This document shows, piece after piece, positions 20,601 to 37,810 of a stretch of DNA of 64,000 nucleotides. Numbering within the stretch: position 1 is the stretch's first letter; each line of letters starts with the position of its first letter. The notes under the pieces are model-generated. The model searched no databases. It was not told where the DNA came from and worked only from the letters and a program-made list of their open reading frames with translations. Origin of the DNA: Escherichia coli (lineage in GTDB: Bacteria > Pseudomonadota > Gammaproteobacteria > Enterobacterales > Enterobacteriaceae). Location: NCBI RefSeq assembly GCF_013315695.1, contig NZ_CP054356.1; one strand, written 5' to 3'. Both the position numbers and the translations under genes were made by a program.

Positions 20601-20610
20601 ATAACAAAAG

Positions 20611-20920
20611 ATGTCGCCGGGCTCCTCTTTTTACTGCGCCGGCTGACGCGGCGCGGCAGGAACGCTGCCTGTGGTCAGTGTCCCGCGTCCGGCCGGGCAC
20701 GGGACGGGCGCTTTTACCGCTCCCGGCTGGCGTCGGTGACAGTGTACGCCAGCCCGTCGCCCTTTTCTGATGAGCGCCCTTCAAGCCGCTTTCGCGGCAT
20801 AGCCTTGCCGTCAAAAAGACGACGGCTGCGGTATTCCACGGTCGGCCTGACCCGTTACCGGGCGCGGTGAACAGCCCACAGGCAGCGGGGAACGGGCGCC
20901 ACAGGGGCGCCCTCCCGATG
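20611..20920. repeat. Leading-region repeat family R1, copy a (about 310 bp, GC-rich, hairpin-rich)
   Basis: Near-identical to 21916-22230; each copy sits directly upstream of a plus-strand ORF; a short partial match occurs at 24473-24510. Confidence 0.5.
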
Positions 20921-20940
20921 CTCCTGTGAGGATAATTCCC

Positions 20941-21867: not shown

Positions 21868-21915
21868 AGTATGACGGAGACGGGCGGGCAACCGCCCGTT
21901 TCTTTTCCGGTAAAG

Positions 21916-22230
21916 GATGTCGCCGTGCTCCTCTTTTTACTGCGCCGGCTGACGCGGCGCGGCATAAACGCTGCCTGTGGTCAGTGTCCCGCGTCCGGTG
22001 GGCACGGGACGGGCGCTTTTACCGCTCCCGGCTGGCGTCGGTGACAGTGTACGCCAGCCTGTCGCCCTTTTCTGATGAACGCCCTTCAAGCCGCTTTCGC
22101 GGCATAGCCTTGCCGTCAGAAAGACGACGGCTGCGGTATTCCACGGTCGGCCTGACCCGTTACCGGACGCGGTGAACAGCCCACAGGCAGCGGGGAACGG
22201 GCACCACAGGGGTGCCCTCCCGGTGCCCTC
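21916..22230. repeat. Leading-region repeat family R1, copy b
   Basis: See copy a; ends at the AAGGAG RBS of the methyltransferase gene. Confidence 0.5.
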
Positions 22231-25917: not shown

Positions 25918-26109
25918 TACAGGGCAGGCGGTGGAGGCCGCCTGTCAGCCCGCGCGAAAACCCCTGGCAGGCTGGCGCCTGCCGGAAGGGAAGCGGGCCA
26001 CGCTGGCGCGTCGCCCGTTACCCTTCCCGTTTGTGATGTGTCCGGAATGTTTTTTCCTGATGTTATGTTTCTGTGGTTACTGTTCTTCTTCTTCCTCTTC
26101 TTTCCGTTC

Positions 26110-26650
26110 CTCTCCTGTTTATGCCTTTTCCGGGCGTCCCCCTGGCGGGGCGGGCTGTCGTGAACGGAGCCAGCGGAGCTGTCTCCGCCCTGGCGGGCTT
26201 CCATCCCTGACGCAAAACCCCGGGTTTGCAGCGACCGGAACGGTCGCGCCACCCCTGTCGCGCCGTGGCCTGCGCTCCCGGCATCCCGGCAAAAAGACGC
26301 CGGGATGTAAGGAGCAACGCCGTTTCGCAAACCGCGCTTCACGTCGTTGCAGCGGGTCCCTGCTCATTGCCTGCCGGGTGCCACACACCCGTATGAGTCC
26401 CTGTCGCCGGGGGCATAGACAGCCACAACCTGCCGCACTGACTGTCCAGGGTAAATGAACAGCCCACAAAATTTTTTACCTAAAACCCGGTAAAAAATTT
26501 TGCGTTCTGCCCAGGACAGGTGCGTCAGGCCGTGGCAGTGATGCCCCTTGCGGCGAAGGTTCTCAAACGGGTGAAGTTCATACCACAGGGAATACAGCAG
26601 CAGGTTCCCGCGAAACGTCAAAACCGCGGCTCCCGAAACTCAACGGGTGA
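26110..26650. repeat. Leading-region repeat family R2 (Frpo/ssi-like ssDNA promoter candidate), copy 1
   Basis: About 540 bp alignable to 29390-29935 and 34800-35370; shared core ggtaaatgaacagcccacaaaattttttacc.aaaacccggtaaaaaattttgcgttctgc...gtcaaaaccgcggctcccgaaactcaac; preceded by a TTC/CTC-rich simple tract. Confidence 0.5.
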
Positions 26651-26884
26651 TGTTCTTTAAAAATCAGGATTTATTTCAGGCTCCGGCAATACGCATTTAT
26701 GTGTTCTGTCAGTCATCCGGCTGGCAGGTAATGAAAACGCAGGAACAGAAGGAGGAAAACACCGGAAAGCGTCAGATGCAGATATGAAAAAAAGCAGGTC
26801 AGGGACCTGCTTAATCCACGCCGTAAGAATTGTGCGACCAATTTTGACGGCATTGTTAACCAATTTGTCATAAGGAATCCATTT

Positions 26885-29138: not shown

Positions 29139-29389
29139 TGACTCCGGGCAGGCGGGAGGATAAATGCCCGTCTGCCCGCGCCGGGAAAAGACCGCGCGCC
29201 GGTGGCGCTGAAAGGGGCCGCGCTTACGCGCCGCCCCTTTCATTACGCGGACGTTCTGCTGTGGGCTTCTGTCTTTTCAGACCTGTCATTTGCCTGTTAC
29301 TGATGATGTTGTTGTTCCTGCTACTGCTACTGCTACTGCTACTGCTACTGTTCTTCTTTTTTCTGCTGCTCTGATTACTGTCTGTTTTG

Positions 29390-29935
29390 TTGTTCTCCTG
29401 CTTATGCCTTTTCCGGGCGTCCCCCTGGCGGGGCGGGCTGTCGTGAACGGAGCCAGCGGAGCTGTCTCCGCCCTGGCGGGCTTCCATCCCTGACGCAAAA
29501 ACCCGGGTTTGCAGCGACCGGAACGGTCGCGCCACCCTTGTCGCGCCGTGGCCTGCGCTCCCGGCATCCCGGCAAAAGACGCCGGGATGTAAGGAGCAAC
29601 GCTGTTTCGCAAACCGCGCTTCACGTCGTTGCGGCGGGTCCCTGCCCGTTGTTCTGTCCGGTGCCATTCACCTGTTTAAGCCCCTGTCGCCGGGGGCTGA
29701 TACAGCCACAACCTGCCGCACTGACTGTCCAGGGTAAATGAACAGCCCACAAAATTTTTTACCCAAAACCCGGTAAAAAATTTTGCGTTCTGCCCAGGAC
29801 AGGTGCGTCAGGCCGTGGCAGTGATGCCCCATGCGGCGAAGGTTCTCAAACAGGTGATGGTGAATACCGGAGGGAACAAAAGGCAGGTCCCCGCAAAACG
29901 TCAAAACCGCGGCTCCCGAAACTCAACAGATGATG
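29390..29935. repeat. Leading-region repeat family R2 (Frpo/ssi-like), copy 2, directly upstream of ssb; preceded by a (CTGCTA)5 microsatellite at 29318-29350
   Basis: See copy 1; microsatellite read directly. Confidence 0.5.
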
Positions 29936-29968
29936 GGGGCTGAAAACATCAACAGAAGGAGACACATC

Positions 29969-30847: not shown

Positions 30848-32812
30848 ATGTCAGTAACAAAGTCTGAACCAAAATCTACCCGTAAAGCAAGCCGTAAACC
30901 TGCAAAAACGCAGGAAACTGTCCTGTCTGCCCTGCTGGCGCAGACGGAGGAAGTGAGCGTGCCGCTGGCCTCGCTGATTAAGTCACCACTGAATGTGCGC
31001 ACGGTGCCGTATTCTGCGGAGTCCGTCAGCGAACTGGCTGATTCCATTAAGGGGGTCGGCCTGCTGCAGAATCTGGTTGTTCATGCCCTGCCAGGTGACC
31101 GCCACGGTGTCGCCGCAGGTGGTCGCCGACTGGCAGCACTCAACATGCTGGCAGAGCGTGGCATCATTCCGGCTGACTGGCCTGTCCGCGTGAAAATTAT
31201 TCCGCAGGAACTGGCGACGGCCGCATCGATGACCGAGAACGGTCATCGTCGGGATATGCACCCAGCCGAACAGATTGCCGGATTCTGTGCAATGGCGCAG
31301 GAAGGCAAAACACCTGCACAAATCGGTGATTTGCTGGGCTATTCACCCCGCCACGTTCAGCGAATGCTGAAACTGGCTGACCTTGCGCCTGTCATCCTCG
31401 ATGCGCTGGCAGAAGACCTCATCACCACCGAGCACTGTCAGGCGCTGGCGCTGGAGAACGACACCGCGCGTCAGGTGCAGGTGTTTGAAGCCGCCTGTCA
31501 GTCGGGATGGGGCGGTAAACCGGAAGTACAGACCATTCGTCGTCTGGTGACCGAAAGTGAAGTGGCGGTGGCAGGGAACAGTAAATTCCGCTTCGTGGGG
31601 GCTGATGCCTTCTCGCCAGATGAACTGCGCACTGACCTGTTCAGCGACGACGAGGGTGGCTATGTGGACTGCGTGGCGCTCGATGCCGCCCTGCTGGAAA
31701 AACTCCAGGCTGTTGCTGAACACCTTCGGGAAGCCGAAGGCTGGGGATGGTGCGCCGGACGCATGGAGCCTGTCGGTGAGTGCCGTGAGGATGCCGGAAC
31801 ATACCGCTGTCTGCCGGAGCCGGAAGCGGTGCTGACGGAGGCGGAAGAAGAACGTCTGAACGAACTGATGACGCGTTACGACGCGCTGGAAAACCAGTGT
31901 GAGGAATCTGACCTGCTGGAAGCAGAAATGAAGCTGATGCGCTGCATGGCGAAGGTCAGGGCGTGGACGCCGGAGATGCGTGCCGGAAGCGGTGTGGTGG
32001 TGTCCTGGCGTTATGGCAACGTGTGTGTCCAGCGTGGTGTGCAGTTGCGCAGCGAGGATGATGCGGCTGACGACGCTGACCGCACGGAACAGGTGCAGGA
32101 GAAAGCGCCCGTGGAGGAAATCAGTCTGCCACTGCTGACGAAAATGTCTTCCGAACGCACGCTGGCAGTCCAGGCAGCACTGATGCAGCAACCGGACAAA
32201 TCCCTGGCACTGCTGGCATGGACGCTCTGCCTGAATGTGTTTGGCAGCGGAGCGTACAGTAAACCAGCACAAATCAGCCTGGAATGTAAACATTATTCGC
32301 TGACCAGCGATGCGCCATCGGGGAAGGACGGTGCCGCATTCCTGGCGCTGATGGCAGAAAAAGCCCGTCTTGCAGCCCTGTTACCGGAGGGATGGTCACG
32401 GGATATGACGACGTTCCTGTCACTCAGCCAGGAGGTACTGTTATCCCTGCTCAGTTTCTGCACCGCGTGCAGCATCCACGGCGTTCAGACCCGCGAGCAT
32501 GGTCACACGTCACGCAGTCCGCTGGACTCGCTGGAGAGCGCTATCGGATTCCACATGCGCGACTGGTGGCAGCCGACGAAAGCAAACTTCTTCGGACACC
32601 TGCAAAAGCCGCAGATTATCGATGCCCTGAATGATGCCGGACTGTCCGGTGCTGCGCGGGACGCGGAGAAAATGAAGAAAGGCGATGCCGCTGAACATGC
32701 AGAGTTCCACATGAAAGACAACCGCTGGGTGCCTGGCTGGATGTGTACACCACGTCCACAGGCAGAGACGGAAACCACGGAGTACCGTGACGACCAGGCA
32801 GAAGCCGCCTGA
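30848..32812 (+). CDS. ParB-like nuclease-domain protein of the leading region, 654 aa
   Basis: N-terminal ParB/Srx-like region (...[30 protein letters not shown]...) and large acidic C-terminal extension; position between ssb and psiB as in F-like plasmids. Confidence 0.7.
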
Positions 32813-34031: not shown

Positions 34032-34194
34032 TGCGGCAACAATCGCACAGATTACCCGTAAACAGCCTGAATGAGCGGGTTATTTTCAGGAAAAGTGAGT
34101 GTGGTCAGCGTGCAGGTATATGGGCTATGATGTGCCCGGCGCTTGAGGCTTTCTGCCTCATGACGTGAAGGTGGTTTGTTACCGTGTTGTGTGG

Positions 34195-34265
34195 CAGAAA
34201 GAAGATAGCCCCGTAGTAAGTTAATTTTCATTAACCACCACGAGGCATCCCTATGTCTAGTCCAC
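34195..34265 (-). ncRNA. sok: Putative Sok antisense RNA of the hok/sok (flm) locus; coordinates approximate
   Basis: Inferred from the position complementary to the hok/mok mRNA leader; ends not mapped. Confidence 0.3.
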
Positions 34266-34465
34266 ATCAGGATAGCCTCTTACCGCGCTTTGCGCAAGGA
34301 GAAGAAGGCCATGAAACTACCACGAAGTTCCCTTGTCTGGTGTGTGTTGATCGTGTGTCTCACACTGTTGATATTCACTTATCTGACACGAAAATCGCTG
34401 TGCGAGATTCGTTACAGAGACGGACACAGGGAGGTGGCGGCTTTCATGGCTTACGAATCCGGTAA
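34253..34465 (+). CDS. mok: Mok (modulator of killing) overlapping reading frame, 70 aa
   Basis: Translation [52 protein letters not shown]... overlapping hok in another frame. Confidence 0.6.
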
Positions 34466-34469
34466 GTAG
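34311..34469 (+). CDS. hok: Hok/FlmA post-segregational killing toxin, 52 aa
   Basis: Hand translation [52 protein letters not shown] matches recalled Hok; the downstream fold-back region ...cttttcagggctgatgctggtctgactgc... is present. Confidence 0.85.
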
Positions 34470-34799
34470 CAACCTGGAGGCGGGCGCAGGCCCGCCTTTT
34501 CAGGGCTGATGCTGGTCTGACTGCACTGAAGCGCCTTTATAAAGGGGCTGCTGGTTCGCCGGTGGCCCCTTTCTCCTTGCTGGCATTGTACGGGCATGAA
34601 CAACCAGACTGCCAGGAAGGCCGTTTCCCTCCGGGAACGGGGATGAACGTGCGCCTGCGGCGCCCGTTCTTTTCCCCCGCCTTCTCTGTTTATGACTTAC
34701 CAGAAATCACATCACCTTCCCTTTGATTATTCTCTTTTTCCTCCTGCTCTGACTCTGATTACTGCTCTGACTCTGATTACTGCTGCCCTGATTATTGTC

Positions 34800-35370
34800 T
34801 GTTTTGTTGTTCTCCTGCTTATGCCTTTTCCGGGCGTCCCCCTGGCGGGGCGGGCTGTCGTGAACGGAGCCAGCGAAGCTGTCTCCGCCCTGGCGGGCTT
34901 CCATCCCTGACGCAAAACCCCCGGCTTGCAGCGACTGTTCCGGTCGCGCCGCCTCTGTCGCGCCGTGGCCTGCGCTCCTGGCATCCCGGCAAAAGGCCGC
35001 CGGGATGTAAGGCGCAACGCCGTTTCGCAAACCGCGCTTCACGTCGTTGCGGCGGGTCCCTGCCCGTTGTTGTGTCCGGTGCCATTCACCTGTTTAAGCC
35101 CTGTCGCCGGGGCTGATAGTTGATACAACCTGCCGCACTGACTGTCCGGTAAAATGAACAGCCCACAAAATTTTTTACCCAAAACCCGGTAAAAATTTTG
35201 CGTTCTGCTCCAGACAGGTGCGTCAGGCCGTGGCAGGTGATGCCCCTGCGGCGAAGGTTCTCAAACAGGTGATGGTGAATACCGGAGGAACAAAAGGCAG
35301 GTCCCCGCAAAACGTCAAAACCGCGGCTCCCGAAACTCAACAGATGATGGGGGCTGAAAACATCAGATAC
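34800..35370. repeat. Leading-region repeat family R2 (Frpo/ssi-like), copy 3; preceded by a tandem 18-bp unit (ctgactctgattactgct x2) at 34748-34783
   Basis: See copy 1; ends at the RBS (caggagga) of the ORF at 35381. Confidence 0.5.
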
Positions 35371-35380
35371 AGGAGGAATT

Positions 35381-35677
35381 ATGAGCGCATTTTCTTTTAA
35401 CACCACTTATCAGCCAACAGGCGATCAGCAGAAAGACGCAATCGCACAAATCGGGATCATGCAGAATCGTGCTGTTCAGGCAAATCTTGCATATCAGAGC
35501 TGCCGGGATTCTGGTGCACTCTTTAAGGTGCTCCACCAGGTCAATAATGAGCTGCATGACTTACTGGATAGCCTGGAGAATCATACTCCTCTTGTCAGAA
35601 AAAACGCTGATGAGTTGATCGCGCTGTTACTGCTTTTCACTCGGCAGGTTGGTCAGTCCCGAACTGACCTGATTTGA
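35381..35677 (+). CDS. Hypothetical protein, 98 aa; first ORF downstream of the oriT-proximal R2 copy
   Basis: Strong RBS AGGAGGA 7 nt upstream of the ATG; no recognised motif. Confidence 0.5.
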   Translation: MSAFSFNTTYQPTGDQQKDAIAQIGIMQNRAVQANLAYQSCRDSGALFKVLHQVNNELHDLLDSLENHTPLVRKNADELIALLLLFTRQVGQSRTDLI

Positions 35678-35787
35678 TGGTCCTTCCCCTCGGAATTGTT
35701 GTCTTTTTGTTAACGATAACCGAGGGGGGATGATATTAAGCGAAAAAACTTTTATTAATTTTATGCCTTCATAAAGGAGTTACTGTT

Positions 35788-36609
35788 ATGCGATTAGCTT
35801 CCCGTTTTGGTCGATATAATTCTATTCGCCGTGAGCGCCCGTTAACGGATGACGAATTAATGCAGTTTGTTCCATCTGTCTTTTCTGGTGATAAACATGA
35901 ATCCCGGAGTGAGCGTTATACATATATCCCAACCATCAATATCATCAATAAGTTACGTGATGAAGGTTTCCAGCCATTCTTTGCCTGTCAGAGTCGGGTT
36001 CGTGATTTGGGACGCCGCGAATACAGTAAACATATGTTACGTCTTCGCAGGGAAGGGCATATTAACGGGAAAGAAGTTCCTGAAATTATCCTGCTTAATT
36101 CACATGATGGTTCATCCAGTTATCAGATGATCCCAGGAATTTTTCGTTTTGTCTGCACAAATGGCCTGGTGTGTGGGAATAATTTTGGCGAAATCCGCGT
36201 TCCACATAAAGGTGATATTGTCGGGCAGGTTATTGAGGGAGCGTATGAAGTGCTCGGTGTCTTTGATAAAGTCACTGAAAATATGGAGACAATGAAAGAG
36301 ATACATCTTAACAGTGACGAACAACATTTATTTGGCAGAGCTGCATTGATGGCCAGGTACGAAGATGAAAATAAAACGCCAGTGACGCCAGAACAAATAA
36401 TTACTCCCCGCCGTTGGGAGGATAAACAGAACGATCTCTGGACAACCTGGCAGCGGGTTCAGGAGAATATGATAAAAGGTGGATTATCGGGGCGAAGTGC
36501 CTCCGGTAAAAATACCAGAACAAGAGCCATTACAGGCATTGACGGTGATATCCGAATCAACAAAGCATTATGGATGATTGCCGAACAGTTCAGGGAGTGG
36601 AAGTCATGA
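35788..36609 (+). CDS. Conserved leading-region protein (orf273/YubP-like), 273 aa
   Basis: Size and position match the 273-aa ORF found between hok and gene X in F-like plasmids; assignment by synteny and recall. Confidence 0.55.
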   Translation: MRLASRFGRYNSIRRERPLTDDELMQFVPSVFSGDKHESRSERYTYIPTINIINKLRDEGFQPFFACQSRVRDLGRREYSKHMLRLRREGHINGKEVPEIILLNSHDGSSSYQMIPGIFRFVCTNGLVCGNNFGEIRVPHKGDIVGQVIEGAYEVLGVFDKVTENMETMKEIHLNSDEQHLFGRAALMARYEDENKTPVTPEQIITPRRWEDKQNDLWTTWQRVQENMIKGGLSGRSASGKNTRTRAITGIDGDIRINKALWMIAEQFREWKS

Positions 36610-36905
36610 TAATATAAGTAAAGCCCCGAAAAATTTTTCGGGGCTTTACTTATATTATCATCCTGCGGCATTGCTGTGTCGTCTGATATGCCTCAATTTC
36701 ATCAACTGGCTTTTCGGTAGTCTGTAAATATTGTGCCCGCGAAAAATGGTCTGGCAGGAGGCTGCACAGTTACCGGATATATATAAGATGGGATCCCGCT
36801 TTGCGGGGCTTCGGCCAGTCAGCATTATCACTCATATGATATTTTTGTGTGTGGCCTTCCATGCCGCTGTCGCGGCATAACCGGTATTTGACAATGTATA
36901 CAATA

Positions 36906-37415
36906 TTAATTTTTCTGCACACTGTTAATTTGGGAAAGTGATTTCTTCGTGGTCGGAACCCGGATGCCTTTACTGCTCTTTATCCAGGTATAAATCCGGT
37001 AAACCTCTGATGCGTAGGCAAGACGTCTCTGGTTCTGGCGTTCGGTCTTCCTGAATCCGGCATTGTATGCACCAACGGCCTCCCAGGAGACGCCCCATTT
37101 TTTAAAGGCTATTGCCAGATAATAAGCACCGGTATAAATGTTCATGCAGGGATCTGTTGTCAGATGTTCCGGCTTAATTCCATAGCGGGCCAGTTCGTTA
37201 AAATGCTGGGAATCTACCTGCATCAGTCCGCTGCCATATCCCGTTACCGGATTAATACCGATGGCATTAACCCGGTAACGGGATTCTTTCCATGATATCG
37301 CTCTCAGTAAATCCGGGTCTATTTTGTAATCCCGACCTGCAAGATCAAAGCAATCGGCGGCTTCGCAGATCCCATTTATAAACATCAGGCAGATTGCTAA
37401 CATCCATTTTTTCAT
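36906..37415 (-). CDS. Lytic transglycosylase (gene X / orf169 / P19 family), 169 aa
   Basis: Signal peptide, then the lytic transglycosylase catalytic region ...[32 protein letters not shown]... (catalytic Glu in the WKES motif) and AYNAG motif. Confidence 0.85.
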
Positions 37416-37439: not shown

Positions 37440-37810
37440 CGTAAATAATTTAACCTACTCCACAAAAAGGCTCAACAGGTTGGTGGTTCTCACCACCAAA
37501 AGCACCACACCCCACGCAAAAACAATTTTTTGCTGATTTTTCTTTATAAATAGAGTGTTATGAAAAATTAGTTTCTCTTACTCTCTTTATGATATTTAAA
37601 AAAGCGGTGTCGGCGCGGCTACAACAACGCGCCGACACCGCTTTGTAGGGGTGGTACTGACTATTTTTATAAAAAACATCATTTTATATTAGGGGCGCTG
37701 CTAGCGGCGCGGTGTGTTTTTTTATAGGATACCGCTAGGGGCGCTGCTAGCGGTGCGTCCCTGTTTGTATTATGAATTTTAGTGTTCCGAAATTAACTTT
37801 ATTTTATGTT
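37440..37810. other. oriT: oriT (origin of transfer): F-type nic sequence on the minus strand (GGGGTGT^GGTGCT, nick between 37507 and 37506), with TraM-binding repeats near traM
   Basis: Reverse complement of 37490-37520 reads gcgtggggtgtggtgcttttggtggtgag, the recalled F/R100 nic region; ctagcggcgcg/cgctaggggcgctgctagcgg repeats upstream of traM resemble sbm sites. Transfer would proceed from 37506 toward lower coordinates, so the leading region enters first. Confidence 0.8.

What the first reader, a model, noticed from the sequence alone, without database searches (positions are those of the whole stretch)
35381..35677. First gene behind the oriT-proximal ssDNA-promoter-like repeat is an unassigned 98-aa protein
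Given the transfer polarity inferred from the nic site, R2 copy 3 is the first such element to enter the recipient, and this ORF with a strong AGGAGGA ribosome-binding site is the first gene it would drive. That makes it potentially the earliest plasmid protein made in a new host, yet I cannot assign a function.
Basis: inference. Interest (0 to 1): 0.4.

Follow-up and report, generated by a model that had tools for sequence, protein, structure and literature searches.

The report
Early plasmid leading gene, function unknown
This is a real 98-residue gene, identical to one in the classic resistance plasmid R100. It is the first gene behind the single-stranded-DNA promoter nearest the transfer origin, so it is probably made within minutes of plasmid entry, but its function is still unknown.

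Summary
**Observation:** confirmed. The ORF (35381-35677, AGGAGGA at 35371-35377) is a real, conserved gene.

**Context.** The window is an IncF plasmid leading region. The nick site lies on the minus strand at 37507/37506, so the minus strand is transferred and serves as template for the ORF. Directly upstream is copy 3 of a ~600-nt repeat. Its arms are 96% and 88% identical to F-plasmid Frpo1, an experimentally validated ssDNA promoter.

**Identity.** The protein is identical to R100's WP_001272251 ("YeiA") and occurs in about 1,775 of 72,556 plasmid records. A 2024 survey already lists it as an uncharacterised family enriched in leading regions.

**The F counterpart is unrelated.**
- F carries an unrelated 95-residue gene (ygeA/yubO) in exactly this slot.
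- The swap is precise: both flanks are conserved.
- F YgeA is made early, depends on Frpo1, and matters for conjugation.
- The two proteins have different predicted folds: acidic three-helix bundle here, basic alpha/beta in F.

**Function.** No family, structure or fold match assigns one. The gene is under purifying selection (dN/dS 0.17-0.30). Its protein changes about 25 times faster than the DUF932 gene next to it.

**Best guess:** a transient, stoichiometric binder of a recipient-cell factor, such as an anti-defence or establishment protein. This is inferred, not shown.

**Verdict:** ordinary known biology with a known unknown.

The parts
37498..37520 (-). oriT nick region, F-type sequence tttgcgtggggtgt|ggtgcttt. 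The nick is between 37507 and 37506 on the minus strand. It defines the minus strand as the T-strand, whose 5' end enters first and runs towards lower coordinates.
   Evidence: sequence. The nick consensus is from my own knowledge of F oriT. Flanked by SLT/orf169 (36906-37415, -) and traM (37829, +).
34771..35365 (-). Copy 3 of the ~600-nt repeat, equivalent to F Frpo1 (class-1 ssDNA promoter, ssp1a). It acts as a hairpin in the transferred minus strand. Transcription would run towards higher coordinates.
   Evidence: Repeat family. Identity to F: arm A 95.8%, apex 64%, arm B 88%. Minus-strand DNA fold -137.1 kcal/mol, z = -7.64, 0 of 100 shuffles as good. Candidate -35 TTGACG on the minus-strand arm; the start site was not determined here.
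35371..35377 (+). Shine-Dalgarno sequence AGGAGGA, 3 nt before the ATG.
35381..35677 (+). 98-aa ORF (the finding): YeiA-family protein, identical to R100 WP_001272251.1. Acidic (pI 5.8). Predicted three-helix bundle (H14-41, H44-64, H70-89) with an invariant but low-confidence N-terminus, M-x-A-F-x-F.
35686..35727 (+). Intergenic hairpin (CCCCTCGG, 26 nt, CCGAGGGG) between the ORF and the DUF932 gene. F has a hairpin at the same place with different stem bases. It is not followed by a T-run, so the two genes are probably one transcript.
   Evidence: Weak statistics: z = -1.8 here, -2.8 in F.
35788..36609 (+). Second gene of the putative operon: 273-aa DUF932 protein, equivalent to F YgeB/YubP/ORF273. 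It is 97% identical to the F protein even though the upstream gene is unrelated.
   Evidence: Pfam PF06067, E = 3e-53. Identity and dN/dS 0.04.
36606..36661 (.). Perfect 28+28-nt palindrome beginning at the DUF932 stop codon. Probably a bidirectional terminator that closes the operon against the convergent SLT gene.
   Evidence: RNA fold -49 kcal/mol, z = -9.3.
29354..29951 (-). Copy 2 of the repeat (Frpo2 equivalent), directly upstream of ssb, DUF905, the ParB-like gene (YfjB/HerB), psiB and psiA.
26071..26668 (-). Copy 1 of the repeat, upstream of a 76-aa ORF, a DUF3560 protein and a SAM-methyltransferase gene.

Best explanation
**Shown by sequence or homology.** The ORF is the R100-type ('YeiA') occupant of the first gene slot behind the oriT-proximal class-1 single-stranded-DNA promoter (Frpo1 equivalent) of an IncF plasmid. 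It forms a two-gene unit with the DUF932 gene and ends at a perfect palindrome.

**Inferred by analogy with F.** After the T-strand (minus strand) enters the recipient, the repeat folds into a hairpin that host RNA polymerase reads as a promoter. The ORF is then transcribed directly from the incoming single strand. It is translated from its strong ribosome-binding site within minutes. Expression stops when the complementary strand is made.

**Inferred, and the least secure step.** The product is a small, mildly acidic three-helix bundle with no catalytic motif and an invariant N-terminal peptide. It most likely works stoichiometrically, by binding a recipient-cell protein such as a defence or DNA-surveillance factor, rather than as an enzyme or a DNA binder. 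The slot behaves like an exchangeable cassette: F carries an unrelated basic alpha/beta protein there. That fits a host-facing function under diversifying pressure.
For: **Position, polarity and promoter homology:**

**F experiments** (PMC9849209; gene order Frpo1-ygeA-ygeB from the strain names):
- YgeA-sfGFP appears before dsDNA conversion and is absent in donors.
- It is lost when Frpo1 is deleted.
- Transconjugant frequency: wild type 92.6%, delta-ygeA 3.9%.
- RNA-seq also shows enrichment of Frpo1-regulated transcripts in recipients (PMC12672017).

**Real coding gene:** dN/dS 0.17-0.30 and a confident AlphaFold2 model.

**Narrow, plasmid-only family:**
- Only 50 hits among 1.84 billion representative proteins, nearly all members or fragments of this same family, plus one spurious repeat-protein hit.
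- All 1,775 plasmid records are from Enterobacteriaceae.
- No match in phages.

**Cassette behaviour:**
- The swap with F ygeA has exact boundaries.
- The two predicted folds differ: all-alpha versus beta-beta-alpha-beta-beta-alpha.
- pI is 5.8 here and 9.7 in F.
- Against one allele, dN is 0.205 for this gene and 0.008 for the adjacent DUF932 gene. dS is also higher, 0.69 against 0.19.

**Independent of DUF932 and of Frpo:** a member at 45% identity sits on 24-kb MOBC/MPF_T plasmids. It has an ordinary operator-bearing promoter and no DUF932 among the 23 features shown.

**Already catalogued:** Samuel et al. 2024 list the family as leading-region-enriched and T-strand-oriented.
Against: - There are no expression data for this gene in any R100-type plasmid. 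The promoter's -35/-10 elements and start site were not mapped here.
- The binding or anti-defence role rests only on size, fold, lack of motifs, genomic company and evolutionary rate.
- Truncated and frameshifted alleles occur. The gene is not essential for every plasmid.
- The F delta-ygeA phenotype cannot be transferred to a non-homologous protein. It may also partly reflect effects on ygeB: delta-Frpo1 delta-ygeAB is milder (32.7%) than delta-ygeA alone.
Confidence: 0.5

Rival explanations
1. The 98-aa protein is a dedicated partner of the co-transcribed DUF932 protein (adaptor, chaperone or antidote). It has no target of its own in the host.
For: - The two genes are adjacent and on the same strand, with no terminator between them. 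This arrangement holds in F-like plasmids down to a member at 43% identity.
- In F, deleting ygeA alone (3.9%) is worse than deleting Frpo1 with ygeA and ygeB (32.7%). ygeB alone could not be deleted. This hints at a balance between the two products.
Against: - DUF932 is 97-98% identical whether the upstream gene is R100-type, its 70%-identical allele, or the unrelated F type. There is no co-variation.
- A family member exists on MOBC/MPF_T plasmids with no DUF932 gene among the 23 features shown across 14.8 of 24.3 kb.
- Natural F-type plasmids keep DUF932 intact with a truncated upstream gene (L009, L011).
Confidence: 0.2
2. The protein acts on processing of the incoming DNA rather than on defence. 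For example, it could interfere with or recruit nucleotide-excision-repair or helicase factors. Its N-terminal 40 residues would be derived from, or mimic, the N-terminus of UvrB.
For: - Residues 4-40 align with E. coli UvrB residues 5-36: FxxN[ST]x[YF][QK]P[TS]GDQ..AI...LA[YH]Q[ST].
- A metagenome scaffold joins a foreign uvrB-like 5' end to this gene exactly at CTTATCAGCCAACAGGCGATCAG.
- The N-terminal part of that chimeric protein weakly hits Bacillus UvrB in the PDB (E = 1.6).
- Host UvrD is needed for ssDNA-to-dsDNA conversion of the leading region.
Against: - A family profile search of the PDB did not retrieve UvrB. The E-values are not significant once the search space is counted.
- G14, D15 and Q16 are not invariant in distant members; M1, A3, F4, F6 and Q17 are.
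- In UvrB this segment is buried in the ATPase core (my own knowledge) and is not a known interaction surface.
- The scaffold is most simply an assembly chimera.
Confidence: 0.08
3. The ORF has no function of its own. It would be a decaying or neutral passenger, or it would serve only as a translated leader that keeps the DUF932 message open and translationally coupled.
For: - Many truncated or frameshifted alleles occur.
- The slot tolerates complete replacement by an unrelated sequence of nearly the same length.
- No detectable relatives exist outside a narrow plasmid group.
Against: - dN/dS is 0.17-0.30.
- Length, helices and 13 invariant residues are kept down to 37-45% identity, and on a different plasmid backbone.
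- The fold prediction is confident.
- About 1,430 records are >=99% identical.
- The ORF stop and the DUF932 start are 110 nt apart, so there is no direct coupling.
Confidence: 0.1

Closest known systems
F plasmid Frpo1-ygeA-ygeB early operon (YgeA = YubO = ORF95; YgeB = YubP = ORF273)
   Same: - Same place relative to the nick, the SLT gene and hok/sok.
- Same ssDNA promoter: arms 96% and 88% identical.
- Same second gene: DUF932, 97% identical.
- Nearly the same slot length, 751-756 bp between the flanks.

   Different: - The first gene is not homologous: BLASTP finds no alignment.
- Different predicted fold and charge: acidic all-alpha bundle versus basic alpha/beta.
- All experimental data (early expression, Frpo1 dependence, conjugation defect) exist only for the F version.
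R100 / IncFII 'YeiA' hypothetical protein (WP_001272251.1; family 48 of Samuel et al. 2024)
   Same: Identical sequence, found in 1,775 plasmid records. It lies in the leading region, in T-strand orientation, at median ORF position 2 from oriT.
   Different: Nothing differs. This is the same gene. It has never been characterised.
Small early leading-region effectors that act by binding host proteins (PsiB on RecA; ArdA, ArdB/KlcA and anti-CRISPRs on defence systems)
   Same: It is small and non-enzymatic, templated by the T-strand, and lies behind an ssDNA promoter. It shares the island with psiB, ssb, an antirestriction gene, methylases and hok/sok.
   Different: No sequence or structural similarity to any of them. 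It is not strongly acidic like the DNA mimics (pI 5.8). No target is known.

Membership tests
Frpo/ssi class-1 ssDNA-promoter-driven leading-region gene | The gene lies on the leading side of the oriT nick, and the transferred strand is its template. | tested here: met
   The nick is on the minus strand at 37507/37506. The ORF is on the plus strand, 2.1 kb to the leading side.
Frpo/ssi class-1 ssDNA-promoter-driven leading-region gene | The gene is directly preceded by a sequence homologous to a validated Frpo, and that sequence folds as a long hairpin in the T-strand. | tested here: met
   Arms 95.8% and 88% identical to F Frpo1. Fold of -137 kcal/mol, z = -7.6. The repeat ends 16 nt before the ATG.
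Frpo/ssi class-1 ssDNA-promoter-driven leading-region gene | -35 and -10 boxes are reconstituted in the stem, with a mapped start site upstream of the gene. | tested here: inconclusive
   A candidate TTGACG, 17 nt, TTTTGT lies on the minus-strand arm, read off the sequence. No published coordinates were available to me. The dsDNA promoter scan finds nothing upstream of the ORF on the plus strand.
Frpo/ssi class-1 ssDNA-promoter-driven leading-region gene | Early, transient expression in transconjugants that depends on the promoter. | not testable with these tools
   Shown only for the F slot occupant YgeA (PMC9849209).
YubO/YgeA (F ORF95) protein family | Sequence similarity to F YgeA. | tested here: not met
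   BLASTP finds no alignment with E <= 100. DNA identity across the ORF is 37.5%, against 88-96% in the promoter arms.
YubO/YgeA (F ORF95) protein family | Same fold. | tested here: not met
   Three helices here. The F model is beta-beta-alpha-beta-beta-alpha at lower confidence, pLDDT 70.
YeiA family (R100 WP_001272251; Samuel 2024 family 48) | Sequence identity or clear homology. | tested here: met
   100% nucleotide identity to R100. The exact sequence is in a cluster that UniRef names 'YeiA'.
Known anti-defence / SOS-inhibitor families (ArdA, ArdB/KlcA, PsiB, anti-CRISPR) and any Pfam, NCBIfam or PHROG family | A profile match. | tested here: not met
   No family hit in Pfam, NCBIfam or PHROGs. 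No PDB sequence match below E = 0.7. Samuel 2024 found no anti-CRISPR or anti-restriction match for the family.
UvrB N-terminal segment | Significant similarity to the UvrB N-terminus, conserved across the family. | tested here: inconclusive
   Pairwise E = 0.007 over 37 residues. The profile search does not find UvrB. The GDQ motif is not invariant in distant members.

The most novel reading that the evidence does not exclude
The first gene slot behind the oriT-proximal ssDNA promoter would be a recombination-exchangeable 'first-strike' cassette. At least two unrelated proteins (F-type YubO/YgeA and R100-type YeiA) would each neutralise a different recipient barrier, and which one a plasmid carries would help set which strains it can establish in. 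On this reading the 98-aa protein is a new anti-defence or DNA-surveillance inhibitor, possibly acting through its invariant N-terminal peptide.
Probability: 0.2. Interest if true: 0.65.

Novelty: already known. Interest (0 to 1): 0.3.

Why it matters
IncF plasmids are the main carriers of resistance genes in E. coli and Klebsiella. What they express in the first minutes in a new host helps decide whether they establish.

In F, the gene in this slot has a stronger effect on conjugation than ssb or the whole Frpo2 regulon. About 1,775 sequenced plasmids, R100 included, carry this unrelated protein there instead, and nobody knows what either protein does.

The precise, same-length swap gives a clean experiment: exchange the two alleles and compare them. 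As it stands, though, the finding restates known leading-region biology and a catalogued hypothetical protein.

Tried and rejected
**Searches that assigned no function**
- Pfam, NCBIfam and PHROGs scans: no family (weak noise only for distant members).
- PDB sequence and profile searches: nothing below E = 0.7.
- Exhaustive HMM search of 1.84 billion representatives: only the family itself, plus one spurious repeat protein, P0127.
- The afdb50 library was not available.
- Phage genomes: no match.
- Rfam: no RNA family overlaps the ORF. It found only sok, FinP and the traJ 5' UTR nearby.

**Ideas tested and set aside**
- The UvrB-mimic idea was followed and kept only as a low-probability lead.
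- The idea of a dedicated DUF932 partner was weakened by the lack of co-variation and by a DUF932-free context.
- Using the flank-to-flank distance to count cassette types failed, because the F-type and R100-type slots have almost the same length.
- A co-fold with DUF932 was not attempted, because the structure tool reports no interface metrics.

**Literature**
- Searches for DUF932 with conjugation, and for yubO/yubP, gave nothing useful.
- No text source gave the Frpo1 start-site coordinates.

Full report
**1. What is at the coordinates**

The ORF runs 35381-35677 on the plus strand, has an ATG start and encodes 98 residues. AGGAGGA lies at 35371-35377, three bases before the ATG.

An ORF of this size is weak evidence on its own. 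The same 12 kb holds 98 ORFs of at least 40 residues, most of them spurious. Several independent results show that this one is a gene:
- The identical protein (WP_001272251.1) is annotated in R100. The DNA matches 1,775 of 72,556 plasmid records, 1,430 of them at 99% identity or more.
- dN/dS is 0.17 against an allele with 95% protein identity and 0.30 against one with 70%.
- Relatives at 43-45% identity keep the same length, helices and motifs.
- AlphaFold2 gives a confident model, pLDDT 82 and pTM 0.72.

**2. Genomic setting**

The window is the leading region and the start of the tra operon of an IncF plasmid. All genes below are on the plus strand except the SLT gene:

| Feature | Position |
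|---|---|
| ssb | 29969 |
| DUF905 gene | 30548 |
| ParB-like gene (YfjB/HerB) | 30848 |
| psiB | 32878 |
| psiA | 33312 |
| hok/sok | 34137-34469 |
| the repeat (copy 3) | 34771-35365 |
| the 98-aa ORF | 35381-35677 |
| DUF932 gene, 273 aa | 35788-36609 |
| SLT gene, minus strand | 36906-37415 |
| oriT | between the SLT gene and traM |
| traM, followed by traJ/FinP, traY and traA | from 37829 |

The F-type nick sequence tttgcgtggggtgt|ggtgcttt lies on the minus strand, with the nick between 37507 and 37506 (the consensus is from my knowledge of F oriT). The minus strand is therefore the transferred strand. Its 5' end enters first and runs towards lower coordinates, and it is the template for every plus-strand leading gene.

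**3. The repeat is an Frpo-type ssDNA promoter**

Three copies of a roughly 600-nt repeat lie at 26071-26668, 29354-29951 and 34771-35365. Copy 3 was aligned to the F plasmid (NC_002483). It is 95.8% identical in the 5' arm, 64% at the hairpin apex and 88% in the 3' arm.

In F that region is Frpo1. It is the 328-nt element shown in vitro to fold into a stem-loop that RNA polymerase uses as a promoter (Masai and Arai 1997, as summarised in PMC7690428). The minus strand of copy 3 folds to -137 kcal/mol, and none of 100 shuffles does as well (z = -7.6). I could not confirm the -35/-10 boxes or the start site; a candidate TTGACG sits in the minus-strand arm. No credible gene and no Rfam family lies between the repeat and the ORF.

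**4. Operon structure**

The gap between the ORF and the DUF932 gene is 110 nt. It holds a modest hairpin with no T-run. The DUF932 gene has its own AAGGAG ribosome-binding site. A perfect 28+28-nt palindrome starts at the DUF932 stop codon. The simplest reading is one unit: repeat, ORF, DUF932 gene, terminator. That matches the F arrangement Frpo1-ygeA-ygeB.

**5. Experimental knowledge about this slot**

Couturier et al. 2023 (PMC9849209) worked with the F plasmid and reported the following:
- YgeA-sfGFP appears before ssDNA-to-dsDNA conversion. It peaks at about 5 minutes, is absent in donors and is abolished by deleting Frpo1.
- Transconjugant frequencies were:

| Plasmid | Transconjugant frequency |
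|---|---|
| wild type | 92.6% |
| delta-Frpo1 | 25.2% |
| delta-ygeA | 3.9% |
| delta-Frpo1 delta-ygeA | 14.5% |
| delta-Frpo1 delta-ygeAB | 32.7% |

- ygeB alone could not be deleted.

RNA-seq after donor elimination confirmed enrichment of transcripts from Frpo1- and Frpo2-regulated genes (PMC12672017).

**6. The F gene and this gene are unrelated**

- BLASTP finds no alignment between the 98-aa protein and F's 95-aa YgeA/YubO.
- In the DNA alignment, similarity stops at the end of the repeat (GATGATGGGGGCTGAAAAC). It resumes around the stop codon.
- The flank-to-flank distance is 751-756 bp for both types.
- F-type ygeA occurs in 2,925 plasmid records and the R100 type in 1,775.
- The predicted proteins differ in kind. 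This one is acidic (pI 5.8) and all-alpha, with helices at 14-41, 44-64 and 70-89 and a low-confidence N-terminus. F YgeA is basic (pI 9.7) and beta-beta-alpha-beta-beta-alpha, at pLDDT 70.
- The neighbouring DUF932 protein is 97% identical between the two plasmids.

**7. Evolution of the family**

- An exhaustive profile search of 1.84 billion representative proteins found 50 hits. Apart from one spurious repeat-protein hit (P0127), they are members or fragments of this one family.
- All plasmid hits are from Enterobacteriaceae, and there are none in phages.
- A member at 43% identity (P0121) occupies the same slot: Frpo-end motif, ORF, DUF932, SLT, traM.
- A member at 45% identity (hhalign probability 99.7%) sits on 24-kb MOBC/MPF_T conjugative plasmids. 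It has an ordinary promoter carrying a palindromic operator. There is no Frpo similarity, and no DUF932 gene among the features shown. The protein is therefore not tied to DUF932 or to Frpo.
- Thirteen positions are invariant across the family: M1, A3, F4, F6, Q17, I24, A31, V32, A34, E57, L58, H68 and K74.
- Against one allele, dN is 0.205 for this gene and 0.008 for DUF932. dS is 0.69 against 0.19. The cassette has both a faster protein clock and a separate recombination history.
- Truncated and frameshifted alleles also exist.

**8. Function**

No library or structure search assigns one. Samuel et al. 2024 list the family (number 48, 'YeiA', 1,062 members, FDR p of 0, median position 2 from oriT, T-strand orientation) as 'Uncharacterized', with no anti-CRISPR or anti-restriction match. 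The DUF932 family is their number 3, at position 1.

My best inference is that the protein acts transiently and stoichiometrically by binding a recipient-cell factor. The grounds are:
- its small size and helical-bundle fold;
- the lack of any catalytic or DNA-binding signature;
- the company it keeps (psiB, ssb, an antirestriction gene, methylases);
- the exchangeable, fast-evolving slot it occupies.

This is not shown. I give the expression mechanism about 0.8 and the binder or anti-defence role about 0.35.

Three rivals remain: a dedicated DUF932 partner, a DNA-processing role, and no function at all. The first is weakened by the lack of co-variation and by the DUF932-free context. The second includes a weak resemblance of residues 4-40 to the UvrB N-terminus. 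The third is weakened by purifying selection and by conservation across plasmid backbones.

**9. On 'earliest protein'**

Copy 3 ends 2.7 kb from the nick. Copies 2 and 1 lie 5.4 and 8.7 kb further in. Transfer runs at several hundred nucleotides per second; F is internalised in about 3 minutes. The head start is therefore a matter of seconds. In F the Frpo1- and Frpo2-driven proteins appeared synchronously at the resolution used. 'First gene behind the first promoter' is right. 'Earliest protein' is not resolvable and probably not meaningful.

**10. Verdict**

The object is already known: it is R100's hypothetical YeiA, in a well-described kind of system. The one point I did not find stated in the papers I read is the precise non-homologous allele swap at this slot. 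That point makes a tractable experiment, but it does not change the category.

Noticed in passing
window 36606-36661: A perfect 28+28-nt palindrome (ATGATAATATAAGTAAAGCCCCGAAAAA / TTTTTCGGGGCTTTACTTATATTATCAT) begins at the DUF932 stop codon. It lies between the convergent DUF932 and SLT genes. RNA fold -49 kcal/mol, z = -9.3. Probably a bidirectional terminator; it could also form a hairpin in the T-strand.
   Followed up: partly
window 35390-35500 (residues 4-40 of the ORF); locus L012 2990-3060: The N-terminus FSFNTTYQPTGDQQKDAI...LAYQS resembles the first 36 residues of UvrB (pairwise E = 0.007, not significant database-wide). A metagenome scaffold joins a foreign AT-rich uvrB-like start (MSEEKIFKLEAPYQPTGDQ) to this gene exactly at CTTATCAGCCAACAGGCGATCAG. 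This is most likely an assembly chimera through a shared k-mer.
   Followed up: partly
locus L015 5860-6221 (NZ_CP101228.1, 24-kb MOBC/MPF_T plasmid): A family member at 45% identity sits behind an ordinary sigma-70-type promoter with a palindromic operator (TTGCAATACCTGCATATGCAGGTATAAT). It heads a run of small same-strand genes that includes a J-domain protein. There is no Frpo and no DUF932 gene. The same protein may be delivered early by repressor-free 'zygotic' expression in another plasmid type.
   Followed up: partly
window 20606-20921 and 21912-22226: A second repeat pair (95-97% identical) lies directly upstream of a DUF1281 gene (20926) and a DNA methylase gene (22251). These are candidates for the class 2/3 ssDNA promoters described for pESBL and F by Wen et al. 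2025.
   Followed up: no
window 35686-35727; locus L002 6335-6380: A hairpin lies between the small ORF and the DUF932 gene. It is present in both the R100-type and F-type plasmids, with different stem sequences, and sits right at the downstream boundary of the swapped cassette.
   Followed up: partly
window 35111-35215: The apex of the Frpo hairpin is only 64% identical to F, while the arms are 88-96% identical. The loop-proximal part of the ssDNA promoter is free to vary, or it differs between plasmid lineages.
   Followed up: no
loci L009 and L011 (E. albertii and Salmonella plasmids): The F-type ygeA is reduced to a 46-codon remnant while the DUF932 gene stays intact. The first-slot gene can be lost in nature, despite the strong delta-ygeA phenotype reported for F.
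   Followed up: partly
window 30848-32812: The 654-aa ParB-like gene downstream of ssb corresponds to F YfjB. A July 2026 preprint (PMC13370423) renames it HerB and describes it as a host-transcription reprogrammer.
   Followed up: no
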